IMG/VR virus record: IMGVR_UViG_3300027749_000064
Source of the DNA: an uncultured virus (IMG/VR IMGVR_UViG_3300027749_000064)
Lineage: Duplodnaviria; Heunggongvirae; Uroviricota; Caudoviricetes
Length of the DNA stretch: 36,993 nt
Reading direction: 5' to 3' (one strand)
Shown here: positions 7,251 through 36,530 of the stretch, piece after piece
Layout: every line of letters begins with the position of its first letter
Numbering within the stretch: the stretch's first letter is position 1
Made by a program: the position numbers and the translations under genes
The notes under the pieces: model-generated
What the model saw: the letters and a program-made list of their open reading frames with translations, nothing else
Database searches by the model: none
Told to the model about the DNA's origin: nothing

Positions 7251-7825
7251 ATATTCAAAAACCACAAATAATAAATGATCTTTTAAAAGAAAAAGATTTT
7301 GAAAATTTAAAAAAAATTTTTTCAATAAATAAAATAAAGTCTTTTAATTTTGAACAAGAACTTTCAAGATATATCATTGCAGATAATCAAATGTTGGAAT
7401 TTAAAGAATATATAAATTTTATAACACCAATAGCAAAAGAAATTTTTAAAAGTGATACATTAATGCCAACATATTCTTTATTTTCACATTATGAAGGACC
7501 AAATGCAAATCTTTATAAACATAAAGATGATAATGCTTGTACATATACAATAGATATGTGTCTTTATCAAAAATATGCTTGGGATTTATGGGTAGAAAAT
7601 CAACCATATACACTTTTGCCAAATCAAGCCTTGGCTTATTATGGCAATAATCAAGAACATTGGCGGGAATCTTTTCCAATGAAAGAAATTAATTATGTAG
7701 CAATGATTTTTTTTCATTTTGCGGAACCAGACCATTGGTGGTTTGTTAAAGGGCCAGGTTATCTTGACGTAGTAAGAGGAAACTTATCGGAGGAAGAATG
7801 GCAATTGGGGCAAAATCAGCATTAG
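7247..7825 (+). CDS. Phage-type 2OG-Fe(II) oxygenase-like protein
   Basis: LYKHKD (HxD) ... YYGNNQEHWRE ... IFFHF; ATGA overlap with the upstream stop. Confidence 0.7.
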   Translation: MNIQKPQIINDLLKEKDFENLKKIFSINKIKSFNFEQELSRYIIADNQMLEFKEYINFITPIAKEIFKSDTLMPTYSLFSHYEGPNANLYKHKDDNACTYTIDMCLYQKYAWDLWVENQPYTLLPNQALAYYGNNQEHWRESFPMKEINYVAMIFFHFAEPDHWWFVKGPGYLDVVRGNLSEEEWQLGQNQH

Positions 7826-8775
7826 TATTAGGTGCTGGAGGATTTATTGGAAGCCATTTAGTAAAAAAGTTAAAAGAAAATAACTATTGGGTTCGTGGGG
7901 TAGATCTTAAATACCCAGAATATTGGGAAACTTTTGCAGACGATTTTGTTATTGGCGATTTAAGAGATCCTAAGATAGTTGAAAGTGTTATTGATTTTAA
8001 ATTTGATCAGGTATATCAATTAGCAGCAGATATGGGCGGTGCTGGCTATATTAATACAGGAGATAATGATGCAGAAGTTATGGGTAACTCTATACTTATT
8101 AATGTAAATGTTTTAAAGAAATCGCATGAAGTTGGAATTGAAGGAGTTTTTTATTCTTCTACAGCATGTGTTTATCCAGAGTATAATCAAATGGACCCAG
8201 ATAGTGTAAATTGCAGAGAAGATTCTGTATATCCCGCATTACCAGATACAGAGTATGGCTGGGAAAAATTGTTTAGTGAAAGGCTATACTTAGCCTATAA
8301 CAAAAATTATAATATGAAAAATAAGATAGCCCGATACCATAATGTCTTTGGGCCGTATGGCACTTGGGACGGCGGTAAAGAAAAAGCCCCAGCAGCTATT
8401 TGCAGAAAAGTAGCAAAAGGAATTGATAAAATAGAAATATGGGGTAATGGCGAACAATTAAGGTCTTTTTTATATATTGATGAGTGCATAAAAGCAACAA
8501 TAGATTTTAACACTAACTCCGATTACTTGGAGCCAATAAATATTGGTTCAGAAAGAGGAATATCAATTAACGAGCTTGTTGATATAGTTTGTGCAATTGC
8601 TGAAAAGAATTTAGAAAAAGTAAATATATCAGGACCTATGGGTGTGCATGCAAGGTACTCAAATAATGATTTGATAAATGAAGTGCTTGGCTGGAAGCCA
8701 GAAGAAAACTTAGAGTATGGATTATCAAAAACATACGAGTGGATAAACAATCAGGTAAATGATTTCAAGCGATAA
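7798..8775 (+). CDS. NAD-dependent epimerase, GDP-mannose 3,5-epimerase-like
   Basis: GAGGFIG, LAADMGGAGYI, SSTACVYPEYNQ, YGWEK (YxxxK), KEKAPAAICRKVA match the GME subfamily. Confidence 0.85.
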   Translation: MAIGAKSALVLGAGGFIGSHLVKKLKENNYWVRGVDLKYPEYWETFADDFVIGDLRDPKIVESVIDFKFDQVYQLAADMGGAGYINTGDNDAEVMGNSILINVNVLKKSHEVGIEGVFYSSTACVYPEYNQMDPDSVNCREDSVYPALPDTEYGWEKLFSERLYLAYNKNYNMKNKIARYHNVFGPYGTWDGGKEKAPAAICRKVAKGIDKIEIWGNGEQLRSFLYIDECIKATIDFNTNSDYLEPINIGSERGISINELVDIVCAIAEKNLEKVNISGPMGVHARYSNNDLINEVLGWKPEENLEYGLSKTYEWINNQVNDFKR

Positions 8776-9814
8776 AATTTATTTTCAATTATACAATCCA
8801 ACTGGAATGATTAATCAAGTTATGAGTATGGAGTTAGCAGTTGGCTTAGCGCACGAAACAAAAAGAGAAACTATTATCCATTATGTTTCTAATAATGGAG
8901 ACAATCTTTACAACTTTAGAACAGTTCCAATTTTTACACCGAGTCGCTGGTACAACCCTCAAAGAAAAGGTTTTATCAACGGAGATCAGTTTCCACACCT
9001 TTCGGATATACTTGAGTGGGATGATTTAAATATAACTTTAATAAATGAAAAAATTGATAGTTTTGAAGATGAACATCTTGTTATTCCAGATTTAATGAAC
9101 AATTATTATTTTTCTAAAGAAGAAAGTGTTAGCGAAAATGAACTTAGTTTTGCAGAAACAAGATCAAGACTTGAGTTCAATGATAATTCTAATATTCATT
9201 TAAAGCTTACTCTTGGTTGGTATTCAAGGTTTTTCTATAACAGAGATAAAGATCTTGATCGCATTTTAAGTAATGTTAAATTTAAAAAAGAATATTATGA
9301 TTTTGCTGCAATGGTAGCATCCTCTTTAGGAAATTTTCAAGCAGGTCACATTAGGCTTTCAGATCATTTAAGAATGTTTGAAACAACACAAGCAATGTTT
9401 GAGTATAATCTTTCAAGACTTGAAAAAAATAATTTGCCTATTGTTATATCAACTTGTGAACCAAATCATAAGATGATTAAAGATAATAGTCATAGATTTA
9501 TTTTACTTGATGAGTATATTGTTAATAATTTTTATAAAGAGTTCCAAGATCTTAAATTTAAAGACGAGATAGTATTTGGCCTTATCTGTAACTTAGTGCT
9601 ACATCACTCTAAGTATTTTATAGGCACATCAGGTAGCACATACACTGGGTATGTACAAAGAAAAAGAAATCAAAATGGTCTTGTAGAAAACTGGGAGTTC
9701 TGGGACAATCCTTGGGACATATCTAATGGGCCGTTTTCTTGGAACGGCTACGCTTTAGAAAATGGAAGAAAGATGTGGTGGAGAGAATGGGAAGAATCAA
9801 AATTAAATTTTTAA
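8759..9814 (+). CDS. GDP-fucose O-fucosyltransferase-like glycosyltransferase (GT-B, O-FucT superfamily)
   Basis: N-terminal G.INQ.M.....LA....R, central HIRLSD (HxR), C-terminal FIGTSGSTYTGYV.R.R. Confidence 0.72.
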   Translation: MISSDKIYFQLYNPTGMINQVMSMELAVGLAHETKRETIIHYVSNNGDNLYNFRTVPIFTPSRWYNPQRKGFINGDQFPHLSDILEWDDLNITLINEKIDSFEDEHLVIPDLMNNYYFSKEESVSENELSFAETRSRLEFNDNSNIHLKLTLGWYSRFFYNRDKDLDRILSNVKFKKEYYDFAAMVASSLGNFQAGHIRLSDHLRMFETTQAMFEYNLSRLEKNNLPIVISTCEPNHKMIKDNSHRFILLDEYIVNNFYKEFQDLKFKDEIVFGLICNLVLHHSKYFIGTSGSTYTGYVQRKRNQNGLVENWEFWDNPWDISNGPFSWNGYALENGRKMWWREWEESKLNF

Positions 9815-9874
9815 AAAACATTGCGTTTAGGTATAAGCAATGGAAAAAATATCGCAAGATTAAAAAATCAAATC

Positions 9875-9883
9875 TGATATACT
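9875..9883 (+). promoter_or_regulatory. Extended -10 promoter giving a probable leaderless mRNA
   Basis: TGATATACT, 6 nt, then ATG 9890 with no SD sequence. Confidence 0.6.
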
Positions 9884-9889
9884 AGTAAT

Positions 9890-10846
9890 ATGTTATTTGA
9901 CTTGTACTACAAAAATGTAATACCACACCACAGTTACGATAAAAACAATAAGTATAAAGATTACTCTGGCGTATTCCCCACGCTAGCAGCACATTCAGAG
10001 GTAGCAAGGCCAGAGTACAACTATATTTGGAATAGCGATGGGTTAAGGTCTATTGAGTTTTCAAATAAACCAAATGTAATTGCATTAGGGTGTTCAATAA
10101 CTTTAGGACAGGGGCTACCAGTAGATTTAAGATGGTCAAACCTATTGTCAGATATGTTAAATAAACACGGGAAATATTCAATAGGTAATATATCTTATAG
10201 TGGAGCAGCGATAAACAAAGACGTTTTAAGTTTTTTTGGTTTAATAAATCAATATAACTATTTGCCAGAATATGTAATTTGTAATTTTGCAAATTTTGAA
10301 AGGTTTTATTTTGTTGATTCAAACAATGAGTATATGCGTGATAACTATGCAAACCATAAACCAAGAGCTTATAAAGCAAATGCACCATTTGACTATGAAT
10401 CTATTATTCCTTATGAATGGATTTATTATAATAATTTAGAGCATATAAAAATGCTTGAGGTTTTTTGTAAAGCCAACAATATCAAATTAATTTGGAGCTG
10501 TTGGTCAAATAATTTAGATGAAAATAAAGAAAAGTTCTTGTTAGAAAATTTTGAATTTTATGTGCAAGATCCAACAAGAAAACAATTTCCTAAAGATTTT
10601 GAGTTTTTGGTAAATCCAGACAGCATAGATAATCTTGAACAATATTATAAAATGAATGATTGGGATCTTATTAAATGCCATGAAGATTATTATAATAAAC
10701 ATAAGGAAATATTTGACCATGGGTATGACTATCATAAAATTGCAGGATCTTGGGGGCCAGGCGCACACTGGCCTCATCCAGGAATACATAAACAAATTCA
10801 CTGGGCAGAATTTTATTATGAAGAGATGAAAAAAAACTGGATTTAA
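9890..10846 (+). CDS. SGNH/GDSL hydrolase-fold protein (esterase or acyltransferase)
   Basis: NSDGLRS, block I ALGCSITLGQG, C-terminal HPG...H. Confidence 0.6.
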   Translation: MLFDLYYKNVIPHHSYDKNNKYKDYSGVFPTLAAHSEVARPEYNYIWNSDGLRSIEFSNKPNVIALGCSITLGQGLPVDLRWSNLLSDMLNKHGKYSIGNISYSGAAINKDVLSFFGLINQYNYLPEYVICNFANFERFYFVDSNNEYMRDNYANHKPRAYKANAPFDYESIIPYEWIYYNNLEHIKMLEVFCKANNIKLIWSCWSNNLDENKEKFLLENFEFYVQDPTRKQFPKDFEFLVNPDSIDNLEQYYKMNDWDLIKCHEDYYNKHKEIFDHGYDYHKIAGSWGPGAHWPHPGIHKQIHWAEFYYEEMKKNWI

Positions 10847-10847
10847 T

Positions 10848-12290
10848 ATGAAAATATTGGGGTATAACGAAACATCACACGATGCTGCTATGGCATTAAT
10901 TGACGATGAAAAAATACTGTTTGCTGGTCATGCTGAAAGATATAGTAAGAAGAAGAATGATTGGTATAACAATGATGAAATAATTACTGATCTTTATTCT
11001 TATGGAACTCCAGACGCTGTAGCATATTATGAAAAATCTAATTTAAAACGATTAAGAATTAAATTGCGTGGGGGTGCTTCGGACTGGAAACCTCTTTGGT
11101 CAGTATCAAAAGTAAAAGAATTTAAGCATCATTACTCGCATGCAGCAGCAGGGTATTACACAAGTCAATTTGATGATGCTGTGATAGTAGTTCTGGATGC
11201 CATTGGTGAATTCAATACTTCAACTGTTTGGGTCGGGGAGGAAGATAAAATCTCCTTGGTAAGTAAAAAAAATTATCCGTTTAGCTTTGGTTTGTTTTAT
11301 TCAGCATTTACTCAGCTTATCGGACTTATGCCAAATCAAGAAGAGTATATTATGATGGGTATGGCTGCATATGGAAATCCAAATAAATACTTTGATAAAG
11401 TAAACAAGTACTTTCCTAGTTTTAAAAAGCAAAGAAAAAATTTTCATAGTGGTATTAATAATTGGAATCTAAAAATTACAGAGCAAGATAAGTTTGATAT
11501 TGCAGCATCAGTTCAAAAAGTTTATGAAAAAAGATTAATGGAATTTATGCATAATGTAAAGTGGAAAACAAAAAAGAATAAATTAGTTTTTATGGGCGGT
11601 TGTGCTTTAAACTGTTCTGCAAACACAAGACTTTGGGAAGTTTTTCATGATATTTGGATTATGCCAAACCCAGGAGATGCAGGCTCTAGTCTTGGGGCAG
11701 CTTTAGCATTAAGAGGAAAACATATTAAGTGGGAAGGCCCGTACCTTGGATACGACTTAGGAAATGATTATCCAGTTGAAGAAATATTAGATCAACTTGT
11801 CAGTAAAGGTGTAGCACCAGTTGCAGCGGGACGTGCAGAATTTGGGCCTAGAGCTTTTGGAAACAGAAGTATATTGGCTGATCCAACAGATATTAGAATA
11901 AAAGATAAAGTAAATAAAATTAAACAAAGAGAACTTTTTAGACCTTTTGCTCCAGTAGTTATGGAAGAACATGCAAATGAATGGTTTGATATGCCAAGGG
12001 GTAAGCCAACCCCATATATGCAATATGCGGTAAAATGTTTAAAGCCAGATTTAATTCCAGCGGTTGTTCATAAAGATGGAACCTCAAGAGTTCAAACGGT
12101 AAATAAAGATCAACACCCAGGTTTGTATGCTGTGCTTTCTGAATGGTATAAACTAACAGGCGTTCCAGTTCTTTTAAATACTAGTTTAAACATAAAAGGG
12201 CAACCATTATTAAATGATGAGTCTGATATAAAATTGTGGAATAAAGTGTATAATAGTACAATAATCACTGGCAGCAAAAAAAATAAATAA
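10848..12290 (+). CDS. Carbamoyltransferase, NodU/CmcH family
   Basis: HDAA, ERYSKKKND, HHYSHAA, GGCALNC, GDAGSSLGAA, EFGPRAFGNRSILA, RPFAP, HKDGTSRVQTV, LLNTSLN. Confidence 0.95.
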   Translation: MKILGYNETSHDAAMALIDDEKILFAGHAERYSKKKNDWYNNDEIITDLYSYGTPDAVAYYEKSNLKRLRIKLRGGASDWKPLWSVSKVKEFKHHYSHAAAGYYTSQFDDAVIVVLDAIGEFNTSTVWVGEEDKISLVSKKNYPFSFGLFYSAFTQLIGLMPNQEEYIMMGMAAYGNPNKYFDKVNKYFPSFKKQRKNFHSGINNWNLKITEQDKFDIAASVQKVYEKRLMEFMHNVKWKTKKNKLVFMGGCALNCSANTRLWEVFHDIWIMPNPGDAGSSLGAALALRGKHIKWEGPYLGYDLGNDYPVEEILDQLVSKGVAPVAAGRAEFGPRAFGNRSILADPTDIRIKDKVNKIKQRELFRPFAPVVMEEHANEWFDMPRGKPTPYMQYAVKCLKPDLIPAVVHKDGTSRVQTVNKDQHPGLYAVLSEWYKLTGVPVLLNTSLNIKGQPLLNDESDIKLWNKVYNSTIITGSKKNK

Positions 12291-27344: not shown

Positions 27345-27518
27345 ATGGCTAAAAAATATAAACTATATGATAATAAAGAATGGGTTTACAAAAGATATGT
27401 AACCGAAAAAAAGACAGTTAGAGAGATGGCTATGGAAGCTAATTGCTCTCATATGACTATTCAAAGAGAATTAGAAAGACATGGATTAATTAAAAAACCT
27501 AGAAAATGGACTAAATGA
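27345..27518 (+). CDS. Small HTH DNA-binding protein (57 aa, absent from the ORF track)
   Basis: AAGGA RBS; MAKKYKLYDNKEWVYKRYVTEKKTVREMAMEANCSHMTIQRELERHGLIKKPRKWTK. Confidence 0.75.
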   Translation: MAKKYKLYDNKEWVYKRYVTEKKTVREMAMEANCSHMTIQRELERHGLIKKPRKWTK

Positions 27519-28198
27519 TACCAGTATTAATATATCCAGTTCTTAATAGATATGATCTTTTAAGAAAATCATTAAGCACAATTGACTATCCAATTGGTGA
27601 AATATTGATTATTAATAATAGCGGCGACAATTCAATGAGTGATGGTCTTATTGAAGAATATCCACATTTAAATATTAGAATTTTAAATTTGCCTTCTAAT
27701 ATGGGCATAACTGGTTCTTGGAATCTTGGAATTAAACTTTATCCGCATGCAAAATATTGGATGTTTTCTTCAGCAGATACAACGCCTTCGCCAGGCCTTT
27801 GGCAAGATTACGCAGAAAAAAGCGGACCAGATAAATTTGTTTTATCAGCAAACGCTGGATGGAATATATTTACAGTTGGAGAAGAAATTGTAAAAAAGGT
27901 TGGGATATTTGATGAGTATATTTACCCAGCTTATTATGAAGACAACGATTATTGGGACAGAATGATTTTAGGCGGATTTGTTGTTGATATAAACATTTTG
28001 CATTCACAAGTTTACGCAGATGAAAATGGAATTTCTCAAACTATAAAAAGCAATCCAATTTTTTTTCAAAAAAATGATTATACATATGTAAAAAATCATG
28101 AGTATTATCATAACAAAAAAAATAGTGGCGATTATACCTGTAAAGGTTGGAATTTAGAGAGAAGGAGAGATCACGAATGGCTACCACAAAAACATTAG
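27515..28198 (+). CDS. Glycosyltransferase, family 2-like
   Basis: PVLNRYDLL, ILIINN, NMGITGSWNLGI, VGIFDE...PAYYEDNDY. Confidence 0.85.
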   Translation: MIPVLIYPVLNRYDLLRKSLSTIDYPIGEILIINNSGDNSMSDGLIEEYPHLNIRILNLPSNMGITGSWNLGIKLYPHAKYWMFSSADTTPSPGLWQDYAEKSGPDKFVLSANAGWNIFTVGEEIVKKVGIFDEYIYPAYYEDNDYWDRMILGGFVVDINILHSQVYADENGISQTIKSNPIFFQKNDYTYVKNHEYYHNKKNSGDYTCKGWNLERRRDHEWLPQKH

Positions 28199-28704
28199 AT
28201 TTAGGATGTGGAAAAGAACCAAGAAATCCTAAAAATGCAGATGAAGTGTATGGAGTTGATATTATTGATTATGGCAACTCAAATATTAAAATAGCAGATT
28301 TAGTTATAGACCCTATACCATTTGAAGATAATACATTTGACTTTGTTACGGGACATGATTTTCTTGAACATATTCCCCGAATGCTTTATATTGGTAGAGA
28401 AAGAAAACAACCATTTATTGATATTATGAGTGAAATTTGGAGAGTATTAAAACCAGGTGGTTTTGGTATTTTTGCAACACCAGCATTTCCTCATCAAGAA
28501 ATGTTTCAAGACCCACAACATGTAAATTATATAAGCACTAATACTTTACAGTATTTTTGTTTACCTTCACAAGCCACAAATGGTTGGAGCTTGTTAAATC
28601 TTTGTCATGATTATGGTTTTAAAGGAACTTTTGAAGCCGTAAACCAATATTGGAGAGAAGATGTTCCATATCATTTAATATGGGAAATTAAGGCGGTTAA
28701 ATGA
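28177..28704 (+). CDS. SAM-dependent methyltransferase (type 11)
   Basis: LDLGCG, GVDI, IPFEDNTFD, FLEHI, EIWRVLKPGG, DPQH; AAGGAG RBS precedes ATG 28177. Confidence 0.9.
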   Translation: MATTKTLDLGCGKEPRNPKNADEVYGVDIIDYGNSNIKIADLVIDPIPFEDNTFDFVTGHDFLEHIPRMLYIGRERKQPFIDIMSEIWRVLKPGGFGIFATPAFPHQEMFQDPQHVNYISTNTLQYFCLPSQATNGWSLLNLCHDYGFKGTFEAVNQYWREDVPYHLIWEIKAVK

Positions 28705-29702
28705 AAGTTTTAATTACTGGTGTTGCTGGCTTTATGGGCAGCCATCTTGCGGATGCATTTCTTAAAAATGGAGATAATGTGATTGGAATTGATAATTTAA
28801 TTGGTGGCTATACAGATAATGTACCAGATGCAGTTGAATTCCATAATCAAGATTTAGGTGATTTTGATGCAGTTAAAGATTTATTTAACGGAGTAGATTT
28901 AGTAGTACATTCTGCATGTACTGCATATGAAGGATTGTCTGTTTTTAGCCCTGCACTTGTTACTCGCAACACTTCACATATAACTACTGTTGCTTTATCA
29001 GCATCAGTTCGGGCGGGAGTTAAAAAGTTTGTTCATATGTCATCAATGGCTAGATACGGAACACAAAAAACGCCATATACAGAAGATATGATACCAATGC
29101 CACAAGATCCATATGGAATTTCTAAAGTTGCTTCAGAACAATTAGTTAAAAATATATGTGAAACTAATAATATAAATTATGTAATTCTTGTTCCACATAA
29201 TATTATAGGGCCAAGACAAAAATATGATGATCCGTTTAGGAATGTAGCTTCTATTATGATAAATAGAATATTGCAAGGCAAAAAACCAATTATATATGGT
29301 GATGGTAGCCAAGTAAGATGTTTTTCTTTTATGAATGATGTAACAAATCCATTAATGATTGCTTGTACAACAGATGTTGCAAATGGCATGACAATAAATG
29401 TTGGCCCAGATGAGGAATTTATTACTATAAAAGATTTGTTTTACAAGATTGCTAAAATAATGAATTACACTGATGATCCTATTTTTTTACCAGGTAGACC
29501 TCAAGAAGTTCATAATGCAGTATGTTCTTCAAATTTATCAAGAAAAATTTTAGGATATAAAACAACAACTACACTTGATAAGGGCTTGACAGAATTGGCT
29601 GAATGGATTAAAATAAAAGGTGTAAAATCTTTTGATTATCATTTACCACTTGAGTTTACAACAGAAAAAACACCTAAAACTTGGTCAGAGAGGCTAATGT
29701 GA
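28701..29702 (+). CDS. NAD-dependent nucleotide-sugar epimerase/dehydratase
   Basis: GVAGFMGSH, SSMARYG, YGISK (YxxxK), GDGSQVRCF. Confidence 0.92.
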   Translation: MKVLITGVAGFMGSHLADAFLKNGDNVIGIDNLIGGYTDNVPDAVEFHNQDLGDFDAVKDLFNGVDLVVHSACTAYEGLSVFSPALVTRNTSHITTVALSASVRAGVKKFVHMSSMARYGTQKTPYTEDMIPMPQDPYGISKVASEQLVKNICETNNINYVILVPHNIIGPRQKYDDPFRNVASIMINRILQGKKPIIYGDGSQVRCFSFMNDVTNPLMIACTTDVANGMTINVGPDEEFITIKDLFYKIAKIMNYTDDPIFLPGRPQEVHNAVCSSNLSRKILGYKTTTTLDKGLTELAEWIKIKGVKSFDYHLPLEFTTEKTPKTWSERLM

Positions 29703-32595: not shown

Positions 32596-32883
32596 ATGTT
32601 AGCAAATGGAACTATTGCAACAATTGAAGACGAACAAGATATTTATATTAGTTTAACTGCACTTTGTGAATATTTTACTAAATCTTCTGTAAATATGCAA
32701 CAAGAAATTAAACATGCAGATCCAAGAGATAAAAGATATGCAGCAGGACTTTATGATATGATGCATACAATTGCACAAGAAATTGTTGAGCTTGGAAAAT
32801 TTGAAGCACAGCGTAGAATGATTAATAGTCCTGAAGATCTTTTAAAGATGATTGACAAAAACCCATTTGGTAAAGTAGAATAG
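32596..32883 (+). CDS. Hypothetical protein
   Basis: AAGGA RBS and ATG start. Confidence 0.65.
   Translation: MLANGTIATIEDEQDIYISLTALCEYFTKSSVNMQQEIKHADPRDKRYAAGLYDMMHTIAQEIVELGKFEAQRRMINSPEDLLKMIDKNPFGKVE
32852..32881 (+). promoter_or_regulatory. Promoter TTGACA-N18-TAGAAT for tRNA-Asn
   Basis: Ends 8 nt before the tRNA 5' end. Confidence 0.6.
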
Positions 32884-32889
32884 CAGTAT

Positions 32890-32962
32890 TGGTCATTAGC
32901 TCAATTGGCAGAGCATCCGACTGTTAATCGGAAGGTTCTTGGATCGTGCCCAAGATGACCAG
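32890..32962 (+). tRNA. tRNA-Asn(GTT)
   Basis: Acceptor TGGTCAT/ATGACCA, D-arm GCTC/GAGC, anticodon arm TCCGA-CTGTTAA-TCGGA, T-arm CTTGG-ATCGTGC-CCAAG, G73; CCA not encoded. Confidence 0.9.
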
Positions 32963-33002
32963 CAAATTATTAACCAACTAATAGAGAGAGTATAATATGA
33001 AT

Positions 33003-33242
33003 ATGACAACAGAAATAGTAAAAGAAAAAGAAATTGAGAAAGAATATGTTCTCAAGGTTATTGATCGTTGTGATTCTTGTAACTCTCAAGCGTATGTATT
33101 AGTAAAAGGTGTAACGGGAGACTTAATGTTTTGTGGTCATCATTACAATAAAAATGAAGCAGCATTAATTAAATTTTCATATGAAATTATTGATGAACGA
33201 GAAAAATTAATAGAAAACAAATTAAAGGGCTCAGAAAACTAA
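33003..33242 (+). CDS. Small zinc-binding protein of a family common in Actinobacteria (DUF7455-like)
   Basis: DRCDSCNSQAYV.......LMFCGHH; TATAAT at 32991-32996 suggests a leaderless start at 33003 (alternative 32997). Confidence 0.7.
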   Translation: MTTEIVKEKEIEKEYVLKVIDRCDSCNSQAYVLVKGVTGDLMFCGHHYNKNEAALIKFSYEIIDEREKLIENKLKGSEN

Positions 33243-33250
33243 ATATTTTA

Positions 33251-33324
33251 GCGGTAGTAGCTTAGTTGGTTAAAGCCCCGAACTCATAATTCGGTAATCG
33301 TAGGTTCAAGTCCTACCTCCCGCA
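33251..33324 (+). tRNA. tRNA with CAT anticodon (elongator Met or Ile2)
   Basis: GCGGTAG/CTCCCGC (one mismatch), GCTT/AAGC, CCGAA-CTCATAA-TTCGG, GTAGG-TTCAAGT-CCTAC, A73; lacks initiator features. Confidence 0.88.
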
Positions 33325-33327
33325 CAA

Positions 33328-33445
33328 GGCTATATGCAGCACACCTTAGCATGGTATAGTTACATATAACAAGTACCCGCAGCGTAAGAGTTCGGGGAGA
33401 TAGGGCAGCGTCATTCGGTGCTGGAATATCTGCGTATAGCCCCCA
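33328..33445 (+). ncRNA. Candidate structured ncRNA closed by a 12-bp helix and ending in C-CCA
   Basis: GGCTATATGCAG (33328-39) pairs with CTGCGTATAGCC (33430-41); four internal hairpins; fills the gap between two tRNAs with 3-nt spacers on both sides. Confidence 0.6.
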
Positions 33446-33448
33446 TTT

Positions 33449-33522
33449 GCGAATATTGCATAGTGGTAGTGCGTAACCTTGCCAAGGTTAATGTGCGAGT
33501 TCAATTCTCGCTATTCGCTCCA
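33449..33522 (+). tRNA. tRNA-Gly(GCC)
   Basis: GCGAATA/TATTCGC, TAACC-TTGCCAA-GGTTA, GCGAG-TTCAATT-CTCGC, U73 plus encoded CCA. Confidence 0.93.
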
Positions 33523-33543
33523 GTAATGTATAATTAACTCATA

Positions 33544-34038
33544 ATGACTAATGCACACAATCAAAAAATGACATTTTCAATTCTGGCACATATTCCAGAA
33601 CATGACCCACGAGAAAAAGATCCAAATTATAAATATTTTATTGCCGCTAAAAAGAAAATTAAAGCGGCGGGACTTTGGAAATGTGCCATCAATGATGATT
33701 TATGTGGTGGACAAATGGAATTACATCATACTCATGTAGAATTTAGTCAAATTTCAAATGCTGATAAATCTAAAATAGAAGCTTATTTTGGTTTAAATTT
33801 TAAAGACGATCAAGAATTTCAAGTTTGGTTAGAAAGTCCAGGAAATTTAGAAGTATTATGTACTAATCATCATAGAACACATTATGGGATACATACATTA
33901 CCCCATGCTCTTTGGGAGTCCCTCCGATTTAGAAAAAATGGGACTCTTCCCGCAGCAGAAGTAGTAACAAAATCTAATATGAAATCTCATAAAATTAATG
34001 ATATAATTAAAACGAAGAGGGGTAACGATGCCATATAA
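33544..34038 (+). CDS. HNH-like His/Cys metal-binding nuclease-fold protein
   Basis: C......C....ELHH ... NLEVLCTNHHR...GIH. Confidence 0.55.
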   Translation: MTNAHNQKMTFSILAHIPEHDPREKDPNYKYFIAAKKKIKAAGLWKCAINDDLCGGQMELHHTHVEFSQISNADKSKIEAYFGLNFKDDQEFQVWLESPGNLEVLCTNHHRTHYGIHTLPHALWESLRFRKNGTLPAAEVVTKSNMKSHKINDIIKTKRGNDAI

Positions 34039-35088: not shown

Positions 35089-35147
35089 CAGGATGCCTAC
35101 GGGGTACTGAATTTAACTAACTTGCTGAAAAGGAGCTAAGTAAAATG
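35089..35147 (+). promoter_or_regulatory. Structured 5' leader of hsp20 (RNA thermometer candidate)
   Basis: TGATATAAT at 35073-81; hairpin 1 with a cUACGg tetraloop; hairpin 2 ACTTGCT-GAAAAGG-AGCTAAGT overlaps the AAGGAG SD. Confidence 0.55.
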
Positions 35148-35582
35148 ACACATCTAACAACATATAACAATCCATTCACACAAATTCAATCTATTTTTAA
35201 TGACCCGTTCTTTTTAGGGTTTAATGATCAATTTGTAAGATGGGAATCAAATAAAAAAACAACATCCGCATTTCCCCCATACAATGTAAAGAAGGTTGAT
35301 GAAGACAATTATATTGTTGAATTGGCTGTTGCGGGATATGATCGTGAAGATCTTGATATTACTGTAGATAAAGATACATTAATTATCAAAAGCGATAGAG
35401 AAAATGATGAAAAATCAGATTTTCTACACAAAGGAATTGCAGGACGCAATTTTAAACAGACGTTCACTTTAGGTGAATACATGCTGGTTAAATCTGCTTC
35501 ACTTGAAAATGGTTTGCTAACCATTAAAATTGAACGGGAAATACCAGAAGAGCACAAGCCTAGACAAATCAAGATCAAGTAG
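35145..35582 (+). CDS. Small heat-shock protein, Hsp20/IbpA-like
   Basis: FPPYNV, VELAVAGY, FLHKGIAGRNF...FTL, ASLENGLLTI...REIPEEHKPRQIKI. Confidence 0.95.
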   Translation: MTHLTTYNNPFTQIQSIFNDPFFLGFNDQFVRWESNKKTTSAFPPYNVKKVDEDNYIVELAVAGYDREDLDITVDKDTLIIKSDRENDEKSDFLHKGIAGRNFKQTFTLGEYMLVKSASLENGLLTIKIEREIPEEHKPRQIKIK

Positions 35583-35593
35583 TATATAATAGT

Positions 35594-35632
35594 GATGAGG
35601 ACCTGAGCACGTCCTGTAATAAACTGCTCATC
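35594..35632 (+). promoter_or_regulatory. H-type pseudoknot in a predicted 5' UTR
   Basis: Stem AGGAC/GTCCT; loop TGAGCA (35604-09) complements TGCTCA (35625-30); begins just after TATAAT at 35585-90. Confidence 0.55.
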
Positions 35633-35647
35633 TAACAGAGGAAAATA

Positions 35648-35779
35648 ATGACTCAAAAGCAAAAAAAAGTAGAAGCAAGACTGGCTATTCGTATTGCAAC
35701 AATGCCTAAAGGGTCGGGGTTTAAAAAGCCTGGGTCCATGAATAAGAAAAAAACAGGTTACGCTAAAGTATCAAGATAA
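35648..35779 (+). CDS. Small very basic protein (43 aa, absent from the ORF track)
   Basis: AGAGGA RBS; MTQKQKKVEARLAIRIATMPKGSGFKKPGSMNKKKTGYAKVSR. Confidence 0.65.
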   Translation: MTQKQKKVEARLAIRIATMPKGSGFKKPGSMNKKKTGYAKVSR

Positions 35780-35794
35780 TGTATAATTAGATAT

Positions 35795-36091
35795 ATGAGC
35801 AAATTAATAAATCATGTATCTTTTTATATAGACAAATACCCAGCAAGAATGTCAGGGTATATTTCAGCAATAATTCTTAATGTTTCTCATATGTGGTCCA
35901 ATTTTCCAATTGGCTTGTTTATTCCAGTTGCCATGTTGTTCATTATGATGGGTGAGGGAGCACAAAGAAAAGAAGATAAAAAAACTTTAAAAGCTCTTTA
36001 TACAGAAAACGATAAAGAAAAATCAGATTCCGATATAATACTAGAGATGGTGCACTCATTGCATCAAAAAGGTGAAAATAATGGCAAATAA
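35795..36091 (+). CDS. Small membrane protein, leaderless
   Basis: Two hydrophobic segments; TATAAT at 35782-87 lies 7 nt before ATG. Confidence 0.6.
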   Translation: MSKLINHVSFYIDKYPARMSGYISAIILNVSHMWSNFPIGLFIPVAMLFIMMGEGAQRKEDKKTLKALYTENDKEKSDSDIILEMVHSLHQKGENNGK

Positions 36092-36530
36092 TGAAAATTT
36101 AATTCAAATTTTAAAAGAATTACAATCAATGGCAATGAAAATGTATGCTCAAGCACACGGTTATCATTGGAATATTAAAGGGCGAGAATTTAAACAAGAT
36201 CACGCTTTTTTATTAGAAATATATGAAGATGTATTTGATTCAATTGATACATATGCTGAAAATTTAAAAAAAATTAAAGAAAAATCACCATTTGGACTTG
36301 AGCAATTACAACAAAATAGTGCATTGAAAATCAATGATTCTGCAGATTTAACTTCTGAACAGATGTTTGCTGAGTTAAGCAAAACTAACTTGCAGATTAT
36401 TGATAAGTTAAAAGATGGCTTTGATATTGCAACAGAAGCTAAAGAAAACGGAATTGCTAATTTTTTTGGTGATCGTCAAGATAAACATTCATTTTGGCAA
36501 TGGCAATTGACAAGCACCCTTAGCGCATAG
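36081..36530 (+). CDS. dps: Dps / ferritin-like DNA-protection protein
   Basis: HGYHWNIKG..F...H..L.EIY......D..AE ferroxidase motifs and a C-terminal K..WQ. Confidence 0.9.
   Translation: MANNENLIQILKELQSMAMKMYAQAHGYHWNIKGREFKQDHAFLLEIYEDVFDSIDTYAENLKKIKEKSPFGLEQLQQNSALKINDSADLTSEQMFAELSKTNLQIIDKLKDGFDIATEAKENGIANFFGDRQDKHSFWQWQLTSTLSA

What the first reader, a model, noticed from the sequence alone, without database searches (positions are those of the whole stretch)
33328..33445. Unrecognised ~118-nt structured RNA between two tRNAs, with a 12-bp terminal helix and 3' C-CCA
Seen: it sits 3 nt after tRNA-CAT and 3 nt before tRNA-Gly. The ends pair over 12 bp (one G-U), followed by one unpaired C and CCA. 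Internal hairpins: ACC/GGT (33343-55), GTTA/TAAC (33359-70), CCCG.AGC/GTTCGGG (33376-96), CAGCGTC/GGTGCTG (33406-23). It is more GC-rich than the flanking coding DNA and has no cloverleaf or T-loop. Known: a 12-bp helix plus NCCA is the size of the tRNA acceptor/T minihelix recognised by RNase P, CCA-adding enzyme and some synthetases. Inference: processing of the flanking tRNAs would release it as a discrete RNA, perhaps a new tRNA-mimic or decoy, for example against host tRNA-targeting defences.
Basis: partly seen in the sequence, partly recalled or inferred. Interest (0 to 1): 0.8.

Follow-up and report, generated by a model that had tools for sequence, protein, structure and literature searches.

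The report
Phage tRNA-array RNA complementary to 23S rRNA
This is a real, uncatalogued small structured RNA gene that freshwater phages carry among their tRNA genes, and its one invariant stretch is complementary to a universally conserved hairpin (helix 69) of the large ribosomal RNA, so it may act on the host ribosome.

Summary
Window 33328-33445 is a 118-nt element between tRNA-Met(CAT) and tRNA-Gly(GCC), closed by a 12-bp helix. It belongs to a family of 57 distinct sequences (77-138 nt) in uncultured phage contigs. All 12 pairs of the closing helix covary. The helix is 12 bp in 41 of 58 hits. No Rfam 15 family or GenBank phage matches.

The element sits at tRNA-like spacing in tRNA arrays, or 5-8 nt behind sigma-70-like -10 boxes. 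The 3' C-CCA is not conserved (7 of 58).

All architectural classes share only the closing helix and a ~21-nt module. In all 57 sequences that module aligns to the reverse complement of 23S rRNA 1909/10-1931/32, that is the helix 69 loop, its 3' strand and the next bases. In the E. coli K-12 chromosome the complement of its two arms occurs only in the seven 23S genes.

Best reading, about 0.4: a tRNA-operon RNA, matured like a tRNA, that pairs with 23S rRNA. That it is an RNA gene is about 0.9. The rRNA pairing is inferred, chance is not excluded (empirical p about 0.002-0.005), and expression is not shown.

The parts
33328..33445 (+). Whole RNA as flagged: 114-nt closed core plus a 4-nt 3' tail
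   Evidence: The covariance model hit on the identical copy L001:1589-1704 scores 139.7 bits.
33328..33339 (+). P1, 5' strand of the 12-bp closing helix. The first G is the likely mature 5' end.
   Evidence: 12 of 12 pairs covary. In relatives without an upstream tRNA, a -10-like hexamer lies 5-8 nt upstream of this G.
33343..33363 (+). Invariant module ACCTTAGCATGGTATAGTTAC, complementary to 23S rRNA 1910-1931 (helix 69 loop, its 3' strand, and the following bases)
   Evidence: Pattern match on the minus strand at 33345-33363. E. coli rrlH sequence. Best 23S duplex site is 1909-1932 at -20.7 kcal/mol. Alignment.
33376..33396 (+). P4 hairpin (CCCG.AGC / GTTCGGG) with hexaloop GTAAGA
   Evidence: A hairpin is predicted at this place in all 28 window-like (class A) sequences, with differing stem letters. 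6 of 6 modelled pairs change on both sides on the fitted alignment. P4 is absent in the 77-80-nt short forms.
33404..33423 (+). P5 hairpin with conserved CATT(C) loop; register ambiguous
Evidence: In one register CAGCG/CGGTG changes to CAGAG/CTGTG.
33430..33441 (+). P1, 3' strand
   Evidence: G-U and U-G pairs in P1 (for example GU in 9 and 2 sequences at two positions) fit the + strand only.
33442..33445 (+). 3' tail C-CCA (a C is conserved; CCA is not)
   Evidence: the first base after P1 is C in 49 of 58, CC in 37 of 58, NCCA in 7 of 58.
33251..33325 (+). Upstream tRNA-Met(CAT) (context)
33449..33522 (+). Downstream tRNA-Gly(GCC) with encoded CCA (context)

Best explanation
The element is the gene of a small stable RNA of a new family carried by a group of uncultured, mostly freshwater, low-GC tailed phages. 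It is transcribed with the phage tRNAs, or from its own sigma-70-type promoter that starts at or next to the first G of the closing helix. The 12-bp closing helix plus a short C-rich 3' tail has the dimensions of a tRNA acceptor/T-arm stack. So the RNA is probably cut out and trimmed by the tRNA-processing enzymes (RNase P at the 5' end; RNase Z or exonucleases, and perhaps the CCA-adding enzyme, at the 3' end). This step is inferred. Behind the helix, every member presents the same ~21-nt module. The rest of the molecule (0-3 further hairpins) varies in sequence and even in architecture. The module's two arms (..CUUAG.. and UAUAGUUAC) are complementary to 23S rRNA 1925-1931 and 1910-1918. That covers the loop and 3' flank of helix 69, one of the most conserved and functionally central parts of the ribosome. 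The proposed mechanism is that the RNA base-pairs with this stretch of host 23S rRNA. The likeliest target is nascent or unassembled 23S, where helix 69 is not yet locked. Pairing with the exposed helix 69 loop of free 50S subunits is also possible. Either way it would alter large-subunit assembly, subunit joining or helix-69-dependent steps during infection. Shown here: gene family, closing helix, P4 hairpin, genomic setting, complementarity. Inferred: expression as a discrete RNA, tRNA-like processing, pairing with rRNA in the cell, and the consequence.
For: 1. Family. blastn found the element in 66 of 137 related loci. A covariance model built from 8 sequences gave 54 matches in 97 loci and 48 in 100 loci. 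One match in each run is a false hit inside the terminase ORF. There were no matches in the loci from the scan that did not hold an element. In all, 57 distinct sequences of 77-138 nt.
2. RNA-level selection. 12 of 12 P1 pairs covary on unfitted and fitted alignments. P4 covaries. G-U pairs fit the + strand only.
3. Setting. 47 of 53 distinct contexts have a tRNA within 95 nt. 42 have an upstream tRNA that ends 0-2 nt before the element. Neighbour identities vary: Met, Gln, Leu, Ile, Asp upstream; Gly, Thr, Ser, Gln, Ile, Asn downstream. In the 10 distinct upstream flanks printed for members without an upstream tRNA, and in 5 further members, a TATAAT-like hexamer lies 5-8 nt before the first G. 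It is often preceded by TTGACA (read by eye).
4. Complementarity. E. coli rrlH carries GTAACTATAACGGTCCTAAGGTAGCG at 1910-1935. All 21 distinct modules of the 44-sequence set have their best 23S duplex at 1909/10-1930/32, at -20.7 to -28.2 kcal/mol. All 57 sequences align to the reverse complement of 1909-1932. The complement of the two arms (GTAACTATA N3-10 CTAAG) occurs 7 times in the 4.64-Mb E. coli K-12 chromosome. One hit lies inside rrlH. All seven share the rrlH letters, and seven is the known (recalled) number of E. coli rrl genes. The backwards control gives 1 hit.
5. The target is invariant.
6. Chance estimate. 9 of 6000 random 24-mers of the window reach the family's median alignment score of 32 against antisense rRNA, and 31 of 6000 reach 30.
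7. Substitution pattern. Within the arm cores, the substitutions seen across the family are only A>G or C>U, which keep pairing as G-U: CUUAG>CUUGG, AUG>GUG, UAUAG>UGUAG, AUAG>AUGG, ACC>AUC/ACU.
8. Shared features. The module and P1 are the only features common to all architectural classes.
Against: - No expression data. RNA-run contigs did not cover the element.
- The complementarity was noticed after the fact.
- By energy, the window's own module (-20.7) is not better than the best of 100 shuffles (-24.2). By my count, 8 of the 21 modules, this one included, do not beat their best shuffle.
- The empirical p is only about 0.002-0.005, and a look-elsewhere factor applies.
- The linker between the arms is variable and mostly mismatched to canonical helix 69. 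The full 21-bp duplex exists only in some members and needs one bulged target base.
- In a folded 50S subunit the 3' strand of helix 69 and 1925-1931 are engaged (established knowledge). m3-pseudouridine 1915 would weaken loop pairing.
- Part of the module also has an internal partner. CCUUR can pair with YAGGG upstream of P5, and CUUGG co-occurs with ACAGGG in two lineages, with one exception, L244. So the wobble-keeping substitutions do not discriminate internal from external pairing.
- The module is predicted only about 50% unpaired, against 40% for the rest of the molecule.
- The set used for several counts was picked with a motif that includes parts of the module. This inflates its apparent invariance for the most distant members.
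- Why a phage would target the ribosome it depends on is unexplained.
Confidence: 0.4

Rival explanations
1. It is a structured RNA whose invariant module is kept for its own tertiary fold or for a protein partner (phage or host). The match to 23S rRNA is a coincidence.
For: Most conserved loops in structured RNAs serve folding or protein binding. Internal pairings for parts of the module exist: CCUUR/YAGGG with two co-changes, and UAUA/UAUA paired in 91% of cells. The P3 and P4 hexaloops are complementary over 4 nt in the main class. The chance probability of the rRNA match is small but not negligible, at 9-31 of 6000. By my count, 8 of the 21 modules do not beat their best shuffle by energy.
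Against: The internal partners (P4 loop, YAGGG context, CAUUC loop) are missing or different in the short forms and in several other classes, yet the module stays the same. The complement of its arms is found only in 23S genes in a whole bacterial chromosome. No conserved candidate partner protein was found next to it. The neighbouring HNH-like ORF is absent from some loci with the RNA.
Confidence: 0.3
2. One reading: a tRNA acceptor/T-arm minihelix mimic that acts as a decoy or sponge for enzymes or defence nucleases that recognise tRNA ends (RNase P, CCA-adding enzyme, synthetases, tRNA-targeting toxins).
For: The closing helix is held at 12 bp in 41 of 58 hits. A conserved C follows it (49 of 58), then often a second C (37 of 58). 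The element has gene-like placement among tRNAs. Phage tRNAs as counter-defence are established knowledge (recalled).
Against: NCCA is present in only 7 of 58. There is no T-loop, anticodon-like arm or identity element. Known tRNA-directed defence nucleases mostly cut anticodon loops (recalled), which this RNA lacks. The idea does not explain the invariant module.
Confidence: 0.12
3. It is a cis-acting element of the tRNA operon: a processing spacer, insulator or terminator that helps release or protect neighbouring tRNAs and has no trans function.
For: It lies 2-3 nt from flanking tRNAs. In some relatives P1 is followed by CCUUUU and a new promoter.
Against: It also occurs alone behind its own promoter, in front of unrelated ORFs such as peroxiredoxin-like and 2OG-oxygenase-like genes. 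A spacer would not need an invariant 21-nt module or hairpins P4 and P5. No terminator-like site is called in the window.
Confidence: 0.08
4. It is a DNA-level feature: a small inverted-repeat mobile element, or a DNA copy of the 23S rDNA site that homing endonucleases and group I introns use.
For: It is found between different tRNA pairs in different phages. The same 23S rDNA stretch is a known homing-endonuclease and intron site (recalled, not tested). An HNH-like ORF lies nearby.
Against: The inverted repeat covaries freely instead of being conserved. It contains G-U pairs that exist on one strand only. Promoters are positioned to start transcription at its first base. Inner hairpins covary.
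Confidence: 0.03

Closest known systems
Phage T4 small stable RNAs rnaC (species 1, 139 nt) and rnaD (species 2, 119 nt)
   Same: They are non-tRNA RNAs of about 120-140 nt, encoded inside a phage tRNA gene cluster at tRNA-like spacing. T4 annotation places rnaD 1 nt after tRNA-Arg and rnaC 6 nt after rnaD. Their function is still unknown (recalled).
   Different: There is no sequence similarity: the blastn search of GenBank phages returned nothing. The folds differ: rnaC carries a T-arm-like hairpin, and rnaD has no closing helix in its predicted fold. Neither has rRNA complementarity beyond chance 9-mers.
tRNA acceptor/T-arm minihelix and non-tRNA RNase P substrates (4.5S RNA precursor, tmRNA, phage P1/P7 C4 RNA; recalled)
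   Same: A helix of about 12 bp starts exactly at the mature 5' end and is followed by a short single-stranded 3' tail. The element lies in a transcript that RNase P must cut anyway.
   Different: RCCA is not conserved (7 of 58). There is no T-loop. The helix is closed by a 50-110-nt multi-branch domain. Cleavage was not tested.
rRNA-complementary guide RNAs of archaea and eukaryotes (box C/D and H/ACA RNAs; recalled)
   Same: A structured scaffold presents a short stretch complementary to a conserved, modified rRNA site. Helix 69 pseudouridines are guide-directed in eukaryotes (recalled).
   Different: No box C/D or H/ACA/ANA motifs were seen by eye, and no Rfam snoRNA hit was found. Bacteria and phages are not known to have the partner proteins. 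The complementarity here is 9 + 5-10 nt on one continuous strand.
Trans-acting base-pairing small RNAs of bacteria and phages
   Same: A conserved seed-like stretch sits within a small structured RNA. Phage encoding is known for several such RNAs (search listing: PMC12197685, seen as title and abstract only).
   Different: Known examples target mRNAs and end in Rho-independent terminators. None is reported to target rRNA: searches gave no such report. This one is closed by a 12-bp helix and lies in a tRNA array.

Membership tests
tRNA (Rfam RF00005) | Cloverleaf with D, anticodon and T arms, detectable by ARAGORN or the Rfam model | tested here: not met
   ARAGORN finds 4 tRNAs in the window and none at 33328-33445. 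Rfam at E<=10 on 33200-33560 finds only the two flanking tRNAs.
tRNA (Rfam RF00005) | 7-bp acceptor stem, discriminator base, CCA end (encoded or added) | tested here: inconclusive
   The helix is 12 bp and continuous. A C follows in 49 of 58 hits, and NCCA is encoded in 7 of 58. CCA addition is not testable here.
tmRNA | tRNA-like domain with T arm plus a tag reading frame | tested here: not met
   ARAGORN (tRNA and tmRNA mode) reports none. There is no Rfam hit.
Phage tRNA-operon stable RNAs (T4 rnaC/rnaD kind) | Non-tRNA RNA gene inside a phage tRNA cluster, same strand, tRNA-like spacing | tested here: met
Phage tRNA-operon stable RNAs (T4 rnaC/rnaD kind) | Homology in sequence or fold to rnaC or rnaD | tested here: not met
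   No match in the blastn search of the phage collection. The predicted folds differ.
Phage tRNA-operon stable RNAs (T4 rnaC/rnaD kind) | Accumulates as a discrete stable RNA after RNase P processing | not testable with these tools
   The RNA-run contigs that were laid gave no cover of the element, which says nothing either way.
RNase P minihelix-type substrate | Helix of about 12 bp starting at the cleavage site | tested here: met
   12 bp in 41 of 58 hits, 11-15 bp in 16 others, and one with an internal mismatch
RNase P minihelix-type substrate | 3' RCCA that pairs with RNase P RNA | tested here: not met
   NCCA in 7 of 58, and the base before it is C, not a purine
Y RNA / YrlA, phi29 pRNA, SRP RNA, 6S RNA, C4 RNA, manA, wcaG and all other Rfam 15 families | Match to the curated covariance model | tested here: not met
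   No hit on the element at the gathering threshold, at E<=10, or on 11 diverse family loci at E<=1
Base-pairing (antisense) regulatory RNA | Conserved stretch complementary to a defined target | tested here: met
   23S rRNA 1909/10-1931/32. Chance estimate.
Base-pairing (antisense) regulatory RNA | Pairing with the target in the cell, with an effect on it | not testable with these tools
   This needs crosslink-ligation, probing or genetics.
Inverted-repeat mobile element (MITE-like) | Terminal inverted repeats conserved in sequence | tested here: not met
   All 12 pairs covary, with up to 5 pair types at one position, and G-U pairs are present.

The most novel reading that the evidence does not exclude
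A phage-encoded RNA, released from the tRNA operon by the tRNA-processing machinery, base-pairs with the universally conserved helix 69 region of host 23S rRNA. By doing so it reprograms or blocks large-subunit assembly or subunit joining. The 12-bp arm with a CC(A) end may also dock it like a tRNA acceptor arm. It would be the first natural trans-acting anti-rRNA RNA known in bacteria or their viruses.
Probability: 0.3. Interest if true: 0.9.

Novelty: new variant of a known kind. Interest (0 to 1): 0.7.

Why it matters
Non-tRNA RNAs in phage tRNA clusters have been known since the T4 species 1 and 2 RNAs, and still have no function. This family adds a well-supported new case: 57 distinct sequences and full covariation of the closing helix. 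For the first time it also offers a concrete, testable hypothesis for such an RNA, namely a defined 21-nt complementarity to helix 69 of 23S rRNA. If the pairing is real, it would show a new way for viruses to act on the ribosome, through RNA-RNA pairing with rRNA. It would also give a natural scaffold for delivering anti-rRNA sequences. If the pairing is not real, the family remains a clean new structured RNA with a ruler-like 12-bp helix, well suited to studies of tRNA-like processing.

Tried and rejected
- **Rfam 15.** No family matches, at the gathering threshold on the whole window, at E<=10 on 361 nt, or at E<=1 on 11 family loci. Hits of plastid UTR models there are tRNA antisense artefacts.
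- **GenBank phages.** megablast and blastn found only tRNA matches. The element alone found nothing at E<=10.
- **Own assembly.** It is not held. The nearest record G001 and contig L002 are identical in the region, so they are uninformative.
- **Expression.** Contigs of four RNA runs (X13, X20, X23, X24) were laid. They covered parts of the tRNAs (from other organisms) and, in X13, the upstream DUF7455 ORF without differences. They gave no cover on 33328-33445. This is no evidence either way.
- **T4 rnaC/rnaD.** No likeness in fold. No rRNA complementarity beyond single 9-mers.
- **Whole-RNA duplex folding against 23S** gave meaningless long interrupted duplexes. It was replaced by module-only folding.
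- **BLAST of the module against E. coli genomes** found nothing at E<=10, presumably because of the 28-Gb database size. It was replaced by reading rrlH and by a pattern search.
- **A second antisense block.** The P5 loop against 23S 1966-1976 appears only as 9-mers in L206, L207 and L162. Exact 8-10-mers to rRNA are equally common in sense and antisense elsewhere. Treated as chance.
- **Loop-loop pairings** GGAUG/CAUUC and UUAC/GUAA are not universal and show no covariation.
- **Hosts with a 23S variant that would pair perfectly.** Such a variant (L256, confirmed as LSU rRNA) was the only 23S hit among the 4 matches of the species-genome scan. The metagenome scan gave 2 contigs. These variants are only 72-74% identical to E. 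coli 23S. So the linker is not tuned to a common host variant.
- **Other perfect anti-helix-69 elements in IMG/VR.** The exact 21-mer hit only a 23S gene fragment.
- **Other identities considered by eye and dropped:** tRNA with an intron or permuted tRNA, because P1 is one continuous 12-bp helix; a CsrA sponge, because GGA is not conserved (the window has AGCAU); an anticodon-like loop UUAGNAU, because the stem is only 1-3 bp; a K-turn or double T-loop, which is not testable.
- **Published catalogue of 8,495 IMG/VR candidate RNAs** (PMC10690425; abstract and passages read). Six contig ids were searched in the supplements and none was found in the 6 files read. Three files could not be searched. 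So prior listing there cannot be excluded.
- **Literature searches** found no description of this RNA or of a phage RNA complementary to helix 69.
Full report
**1. The observation**

GGCTATATGCAG (33328-33339) and CTGCGTATAGCC (33430-33441) form 12 pairs with one U-G pair. C, CCA and TTT follow. ARAGORN calls tRNA-Met(CAT) at 33251-33325 and tRNA-Gly(GCC) at 33449-33522, and Rfam agrees.

Nothing else in Rfam 15 matches the stretch, even at E<=10 on a 361-nt slice. The single sequence folds only moderately better than shuffles: -39.7 kcal/mol, z = -2.33, and 2 of 200 shuffles fold as well. The identical copy has 50% G+C, against 33-35% around it.

The window is phage-like. It encodes DNA polymerase III alpha, DnaB, primase, RecA, a PD-(D/E)XK nuclease and sugar-modifying enzymes. 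A terminase large subunit lies just upstream of the tRNA/RNA cluster.

**2. A family**

GenBank phages hold nothing like it. I used two flanking proteins as handles: the terminase, and a 164-aa HNH-like ORF (HNH likeness judged by eye; no Pfam or PHROG hit). These brought in 135 IMG/VR loci, which made 137 with two copies of the window's own region.

- blastn found the element in 66 of the 137 loci.
- A motif scan of IMG/VR added more.
- A covariance model built from eight window-like sequences found 54 matches in 97 loci and 48 in 100 loci. One match in each run is a false hit inside the terminase ORF (E 0.06-0.16). There were no matches in the loci from the scan that did not hold an element.

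A non-redundant run gave 58 hits and 57 distinct sequences, 77-138 nt long. One further member lies in a tRNA array on a 23.8-kb contig binned into a Bacteroidia MAG.

**3. Anatomy**

*Closing helix P1.*
- On an unfitted MAFFT alignment of 44 distinct sequences, all 12 pairs change on both sides.
- 97.3% of cells are paired, against 25-51% when the partner is slid.
- On the model-fitted alignment the figure is 99.3%, with up to five pair types at one position (that alignment leans towards the model's structure).
- The helix is 12 bp in 41 of 58 hits, 11 in 3, 13 in 8, 14 in 4 and 15 in 1. One hit has an internal mismatch.
- G-U pairs fit the + strand only.

It shows two-sided changes at 6 of 6 modelled pairs. 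It is missing from the 77-80-nt short forms and replaced in other classes.

*Hairpin P5.* A hairpin with a conserved CAUU(C) loop exists. The shifted register has a C-G to A-U co-change.

- GUUA/UAAC has no two-sided change, and its outer pairs are broken in 16-17 of 44 sequences.
- ACC/GGU comes down to one invariant C-G plus one partly covarying pair.
- A competing UAUA/UAUA stem is paired in 91% of cells but never varies.

*The 3' end.* The base after P1 is C in 49 of 58 and CC in 37 of 58. NCCA is present in only 7 of 58. The window's C-CCA is therefore not a family trait.

**4. Setting**

- Of 53 distinct contexts, 47 have a tRNA within 95 nt.
- 42 have an upstream tRNA that ends 0-2 nt before the element.
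- The neighbours differ from phage to phage.
- The three bases before the first G are CAA in 28 of 58 hits.

Where no tRNA lies upstream, promoter-like signals take its place. The 10 distinct upstream flanks printed for such members, and 5 further diverged members, show a TATAAT-like hexamer 5-8 nt before the first G. It is often preceded by TTGACA at proper spacing. I read these by eye, not with a calibrated scan.

So the first G of P1 is the start of the RNA either way, by transcription or by processing. In some phages the RNA stands alone in front of unrelated ORFs. It behaves as a gene cassette of the tRNA array.

**5. What the invariant module is**

All architectural classes share only P1 and, 1-8 nt behind its 5' strand, a module of the form (A)CCUUAG-N-AUG-N-UAUAGUUAC.

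A scan of 185,579 species genomes for this motif returned four places. They were one true element, two chance hits, and a 619-nt contig that Rfam identifies as bacterial LSU rRNA on the opposite strand (581.9 bits).

I then read E. coli rrlH. It carries GTAACTATAACGGTCCTAAGGTAGCG at 1910-1935. This is the last stem base and the loop of helix 69, its 3' strand, and the bases that follow. The helix assignment is established knowledge.

- All 21 distinct modules of the 44-sequence set have their best 23S duplex at 1909/10-1930/32, at -20.7 to -28.2 kcal/mol.
- All 57 sequences align to the reverse complement of 1909-1932.
- The commonest form (..CUUAGGAUGUUAUAGUUAC) gives 11 pairs, one bulged target base, then 8-10 pairs. 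One of those is G-U, and their number depends on the two variable bases before CUUAG. In the window's own RNA, mismatches interrupt the stretch between the arms.
- The complement of the two arms with 3-10 free bases between them occurs seven times in the 4.64-Mb E. coli K-12 chromosome. One hit lies inside rrlH. All seven carry the same letters. Seven is the known (recalled) number of E. coli 23S genes. The backwards control gives one hit.
- The target is invariant. In 151 sampled genomes of one class, 72 have it, and every listed match but one is identical to E. coli (this includes one unpublished genome, G035, on which nothing depends).

**6. How likely is chance?**

- My arithmetic: a 14-base two-part pattern with eight spacings is expected 4566 x 8 / 4^14, about 1.4e-4 times, in one strand of the three rRNAs.
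- An empirical null is less extreme. Of 6000 random 24-mers from the window, 9 reach the family's median local-alignment score (32) against antisense rRNA, 31 reach 30, and 2 reach 34.
- By energy, the window's own module is not better than its best shuffle.
- The match was found after the fact.

I therefore treat it as significant but not proven, at roughly p = 0.002-0.005 before any look-elsewhere factor.

Two further observations fit pairing to a fixed partner. First, the module is constant while everything but P1 changes. Second, the substitutions seen in the arm cores are only A>G or C>U, which keep G-U pairing.

The second point is weakened. CUUGG co-occurs with ACAGGG in two lineages, against AUAGGG elsewhere, with one exception. 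This supports an internal helix CCUUR/YAGGG, which may compete with, or mask, one arm. Predicted accessibility of the module is unremarkable: 0.50 unpaired against 0.40 for the rest of the RNA.

**7. Mechanism**

*Shown:* an RNA gene family under selection for a 12-bp closing helix and hairpin P4; placement as a unit of tRNA operons or behind its own promoter; a constant 21-nt module complementary to 23S 1910-1931.

*Inferred:*
- The RNA is released and trimmed by tRNA-processing enzymes. The helix length and the C-rich tail fit this. RCCA is not required by the data.
- The RNA pairs with host 23S rRNA, most plausibly nascent or unassembled 23S, or with the exposed helix 69 loop of free 50S subunits.
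- This pairing changes subunit assembly, subunit joining or other helix-69-dependent steps.

I give about 0.9 to 'a real RNA gene'. I give about 0.3-0.4 to the rRNA-pairing mechanism.

Rivals: conserved module for fold or protein with a coincidental rRNA match (0.3); tRNA-end decoy (0.12); cis-acting operon element (0.08); DNA-level element (0.03).

**8. Comparison with what is known**

The kind, a non-tRNA RNA in a phage tRNA cluster, is old. T4 annotates rnaC and rnaD directly behind tRNA-Arg. They share neither sequence, fold nor rRNA complementarity with this family.

Earlier notes of this scan describe other uncatalogued RNAs in phage tRNA operons. I did not test them, and they are not independent support.

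No paper found in five searches describes this RNA or a phage RNA complementary to helix 69. A catalogue of 8,495 IMG/VR candidate RNAs (PMC10690425) may list it. Its supplements could be searched only in part.

**9. Verdict**

The finding is real and well supported as a new structured RNA family. The tRNA-mimic reading is only partly right. The most interesting result is the complementarity to helix 69, which makes the function of a tRNA-operon RNA directly testable for the first time.

Noticed in passing
window 33544-34038 (+): A 164-aa ORF just after the tRNA/RNA cluster carries Cys and His motifs that look like an HNH nuclease (by eye). It has no Pfam or PHROG hit. Relatives lie 26-193 nt downstream of the RNA in most of the 31 loci that also hold the element by the motif finder, out of 57 loci with the ORF. 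In two loci it is 919 nt away and in two the element lies downstream. The ORF is absent from the roughly 2.6 kb read downstream of the RNA in L056.
   Followed up: partly
window 32890-32966 and 33251-33327: tRNA-Asn and tRNA-Met are followed by CAA rather than CCA after the discriminator base, while tRNA-Gly encodes CCA. CAA is also the commonest 3-nt leader before the RNA, in 28 of 58 hits.
   Followed up: partly
window 32852-32881 (+): A promoter-like site TTGACA-18-TAGAAT (11 of 12 matches) ends 8 nt before tRNA-Asn. The count of such sites in the region is not above that in shuffles.
   Followed up: no
window 7798-12290, 27515-29702, 35145-36530: Auxiliary-type genes are present: two NAD-dependent sugar epimerases, a carbamoyltransferase, glycosyltransferases, an Hsp20 and a ferritin/Dps-like protein.
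   Followed up: no
L255 (Bacteroidia MAG contig JBBALJ010000049.1, 12408-13226): A family member sits in a dense array of at least five tRNA genes on a 23.8-kb contig binned into a bacterial MAG. It may be a phage contig or a prophage. The canonical -35/-10 promoters of the family argue against a Bacteroidota host (the promoter types are recalled).
   Followed up: partly
L256, L262, L263: These are rare LSU rRNA variants with a shortened helix 69 region (..ACTATACCAT[CT]C..), only 72-74% identical to E. coli 23S. One occurs in a MAG that also holds two canonical 23S fragments, so the MAG is probably mixed.
   Followed up: partly
L261 (IMGVR_UViG_2775507074_000001, 417-737): A contig filed as viral carries a 23S rRNA gene fragment.
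   Followed up: no
window 33251-33325 and 33449-33520 (- strand): The Rfam models Plastid-ycf2 and Plastid-psbl-rps4 score on the antisense of tRNA genes, below their gathering scores. These are artefacts of tRNA-derived models.
   Followed up: no
L056 8077-9116; L028 8902-10650: In relatives the RNA, with its own promoter, precedes peroxiredoxin/AhpD-like genes, or follows Hsp20 and precedes 2OG-oxygenase-like ORFs. These functions were judged from the translations by eye.
   Followed up: no
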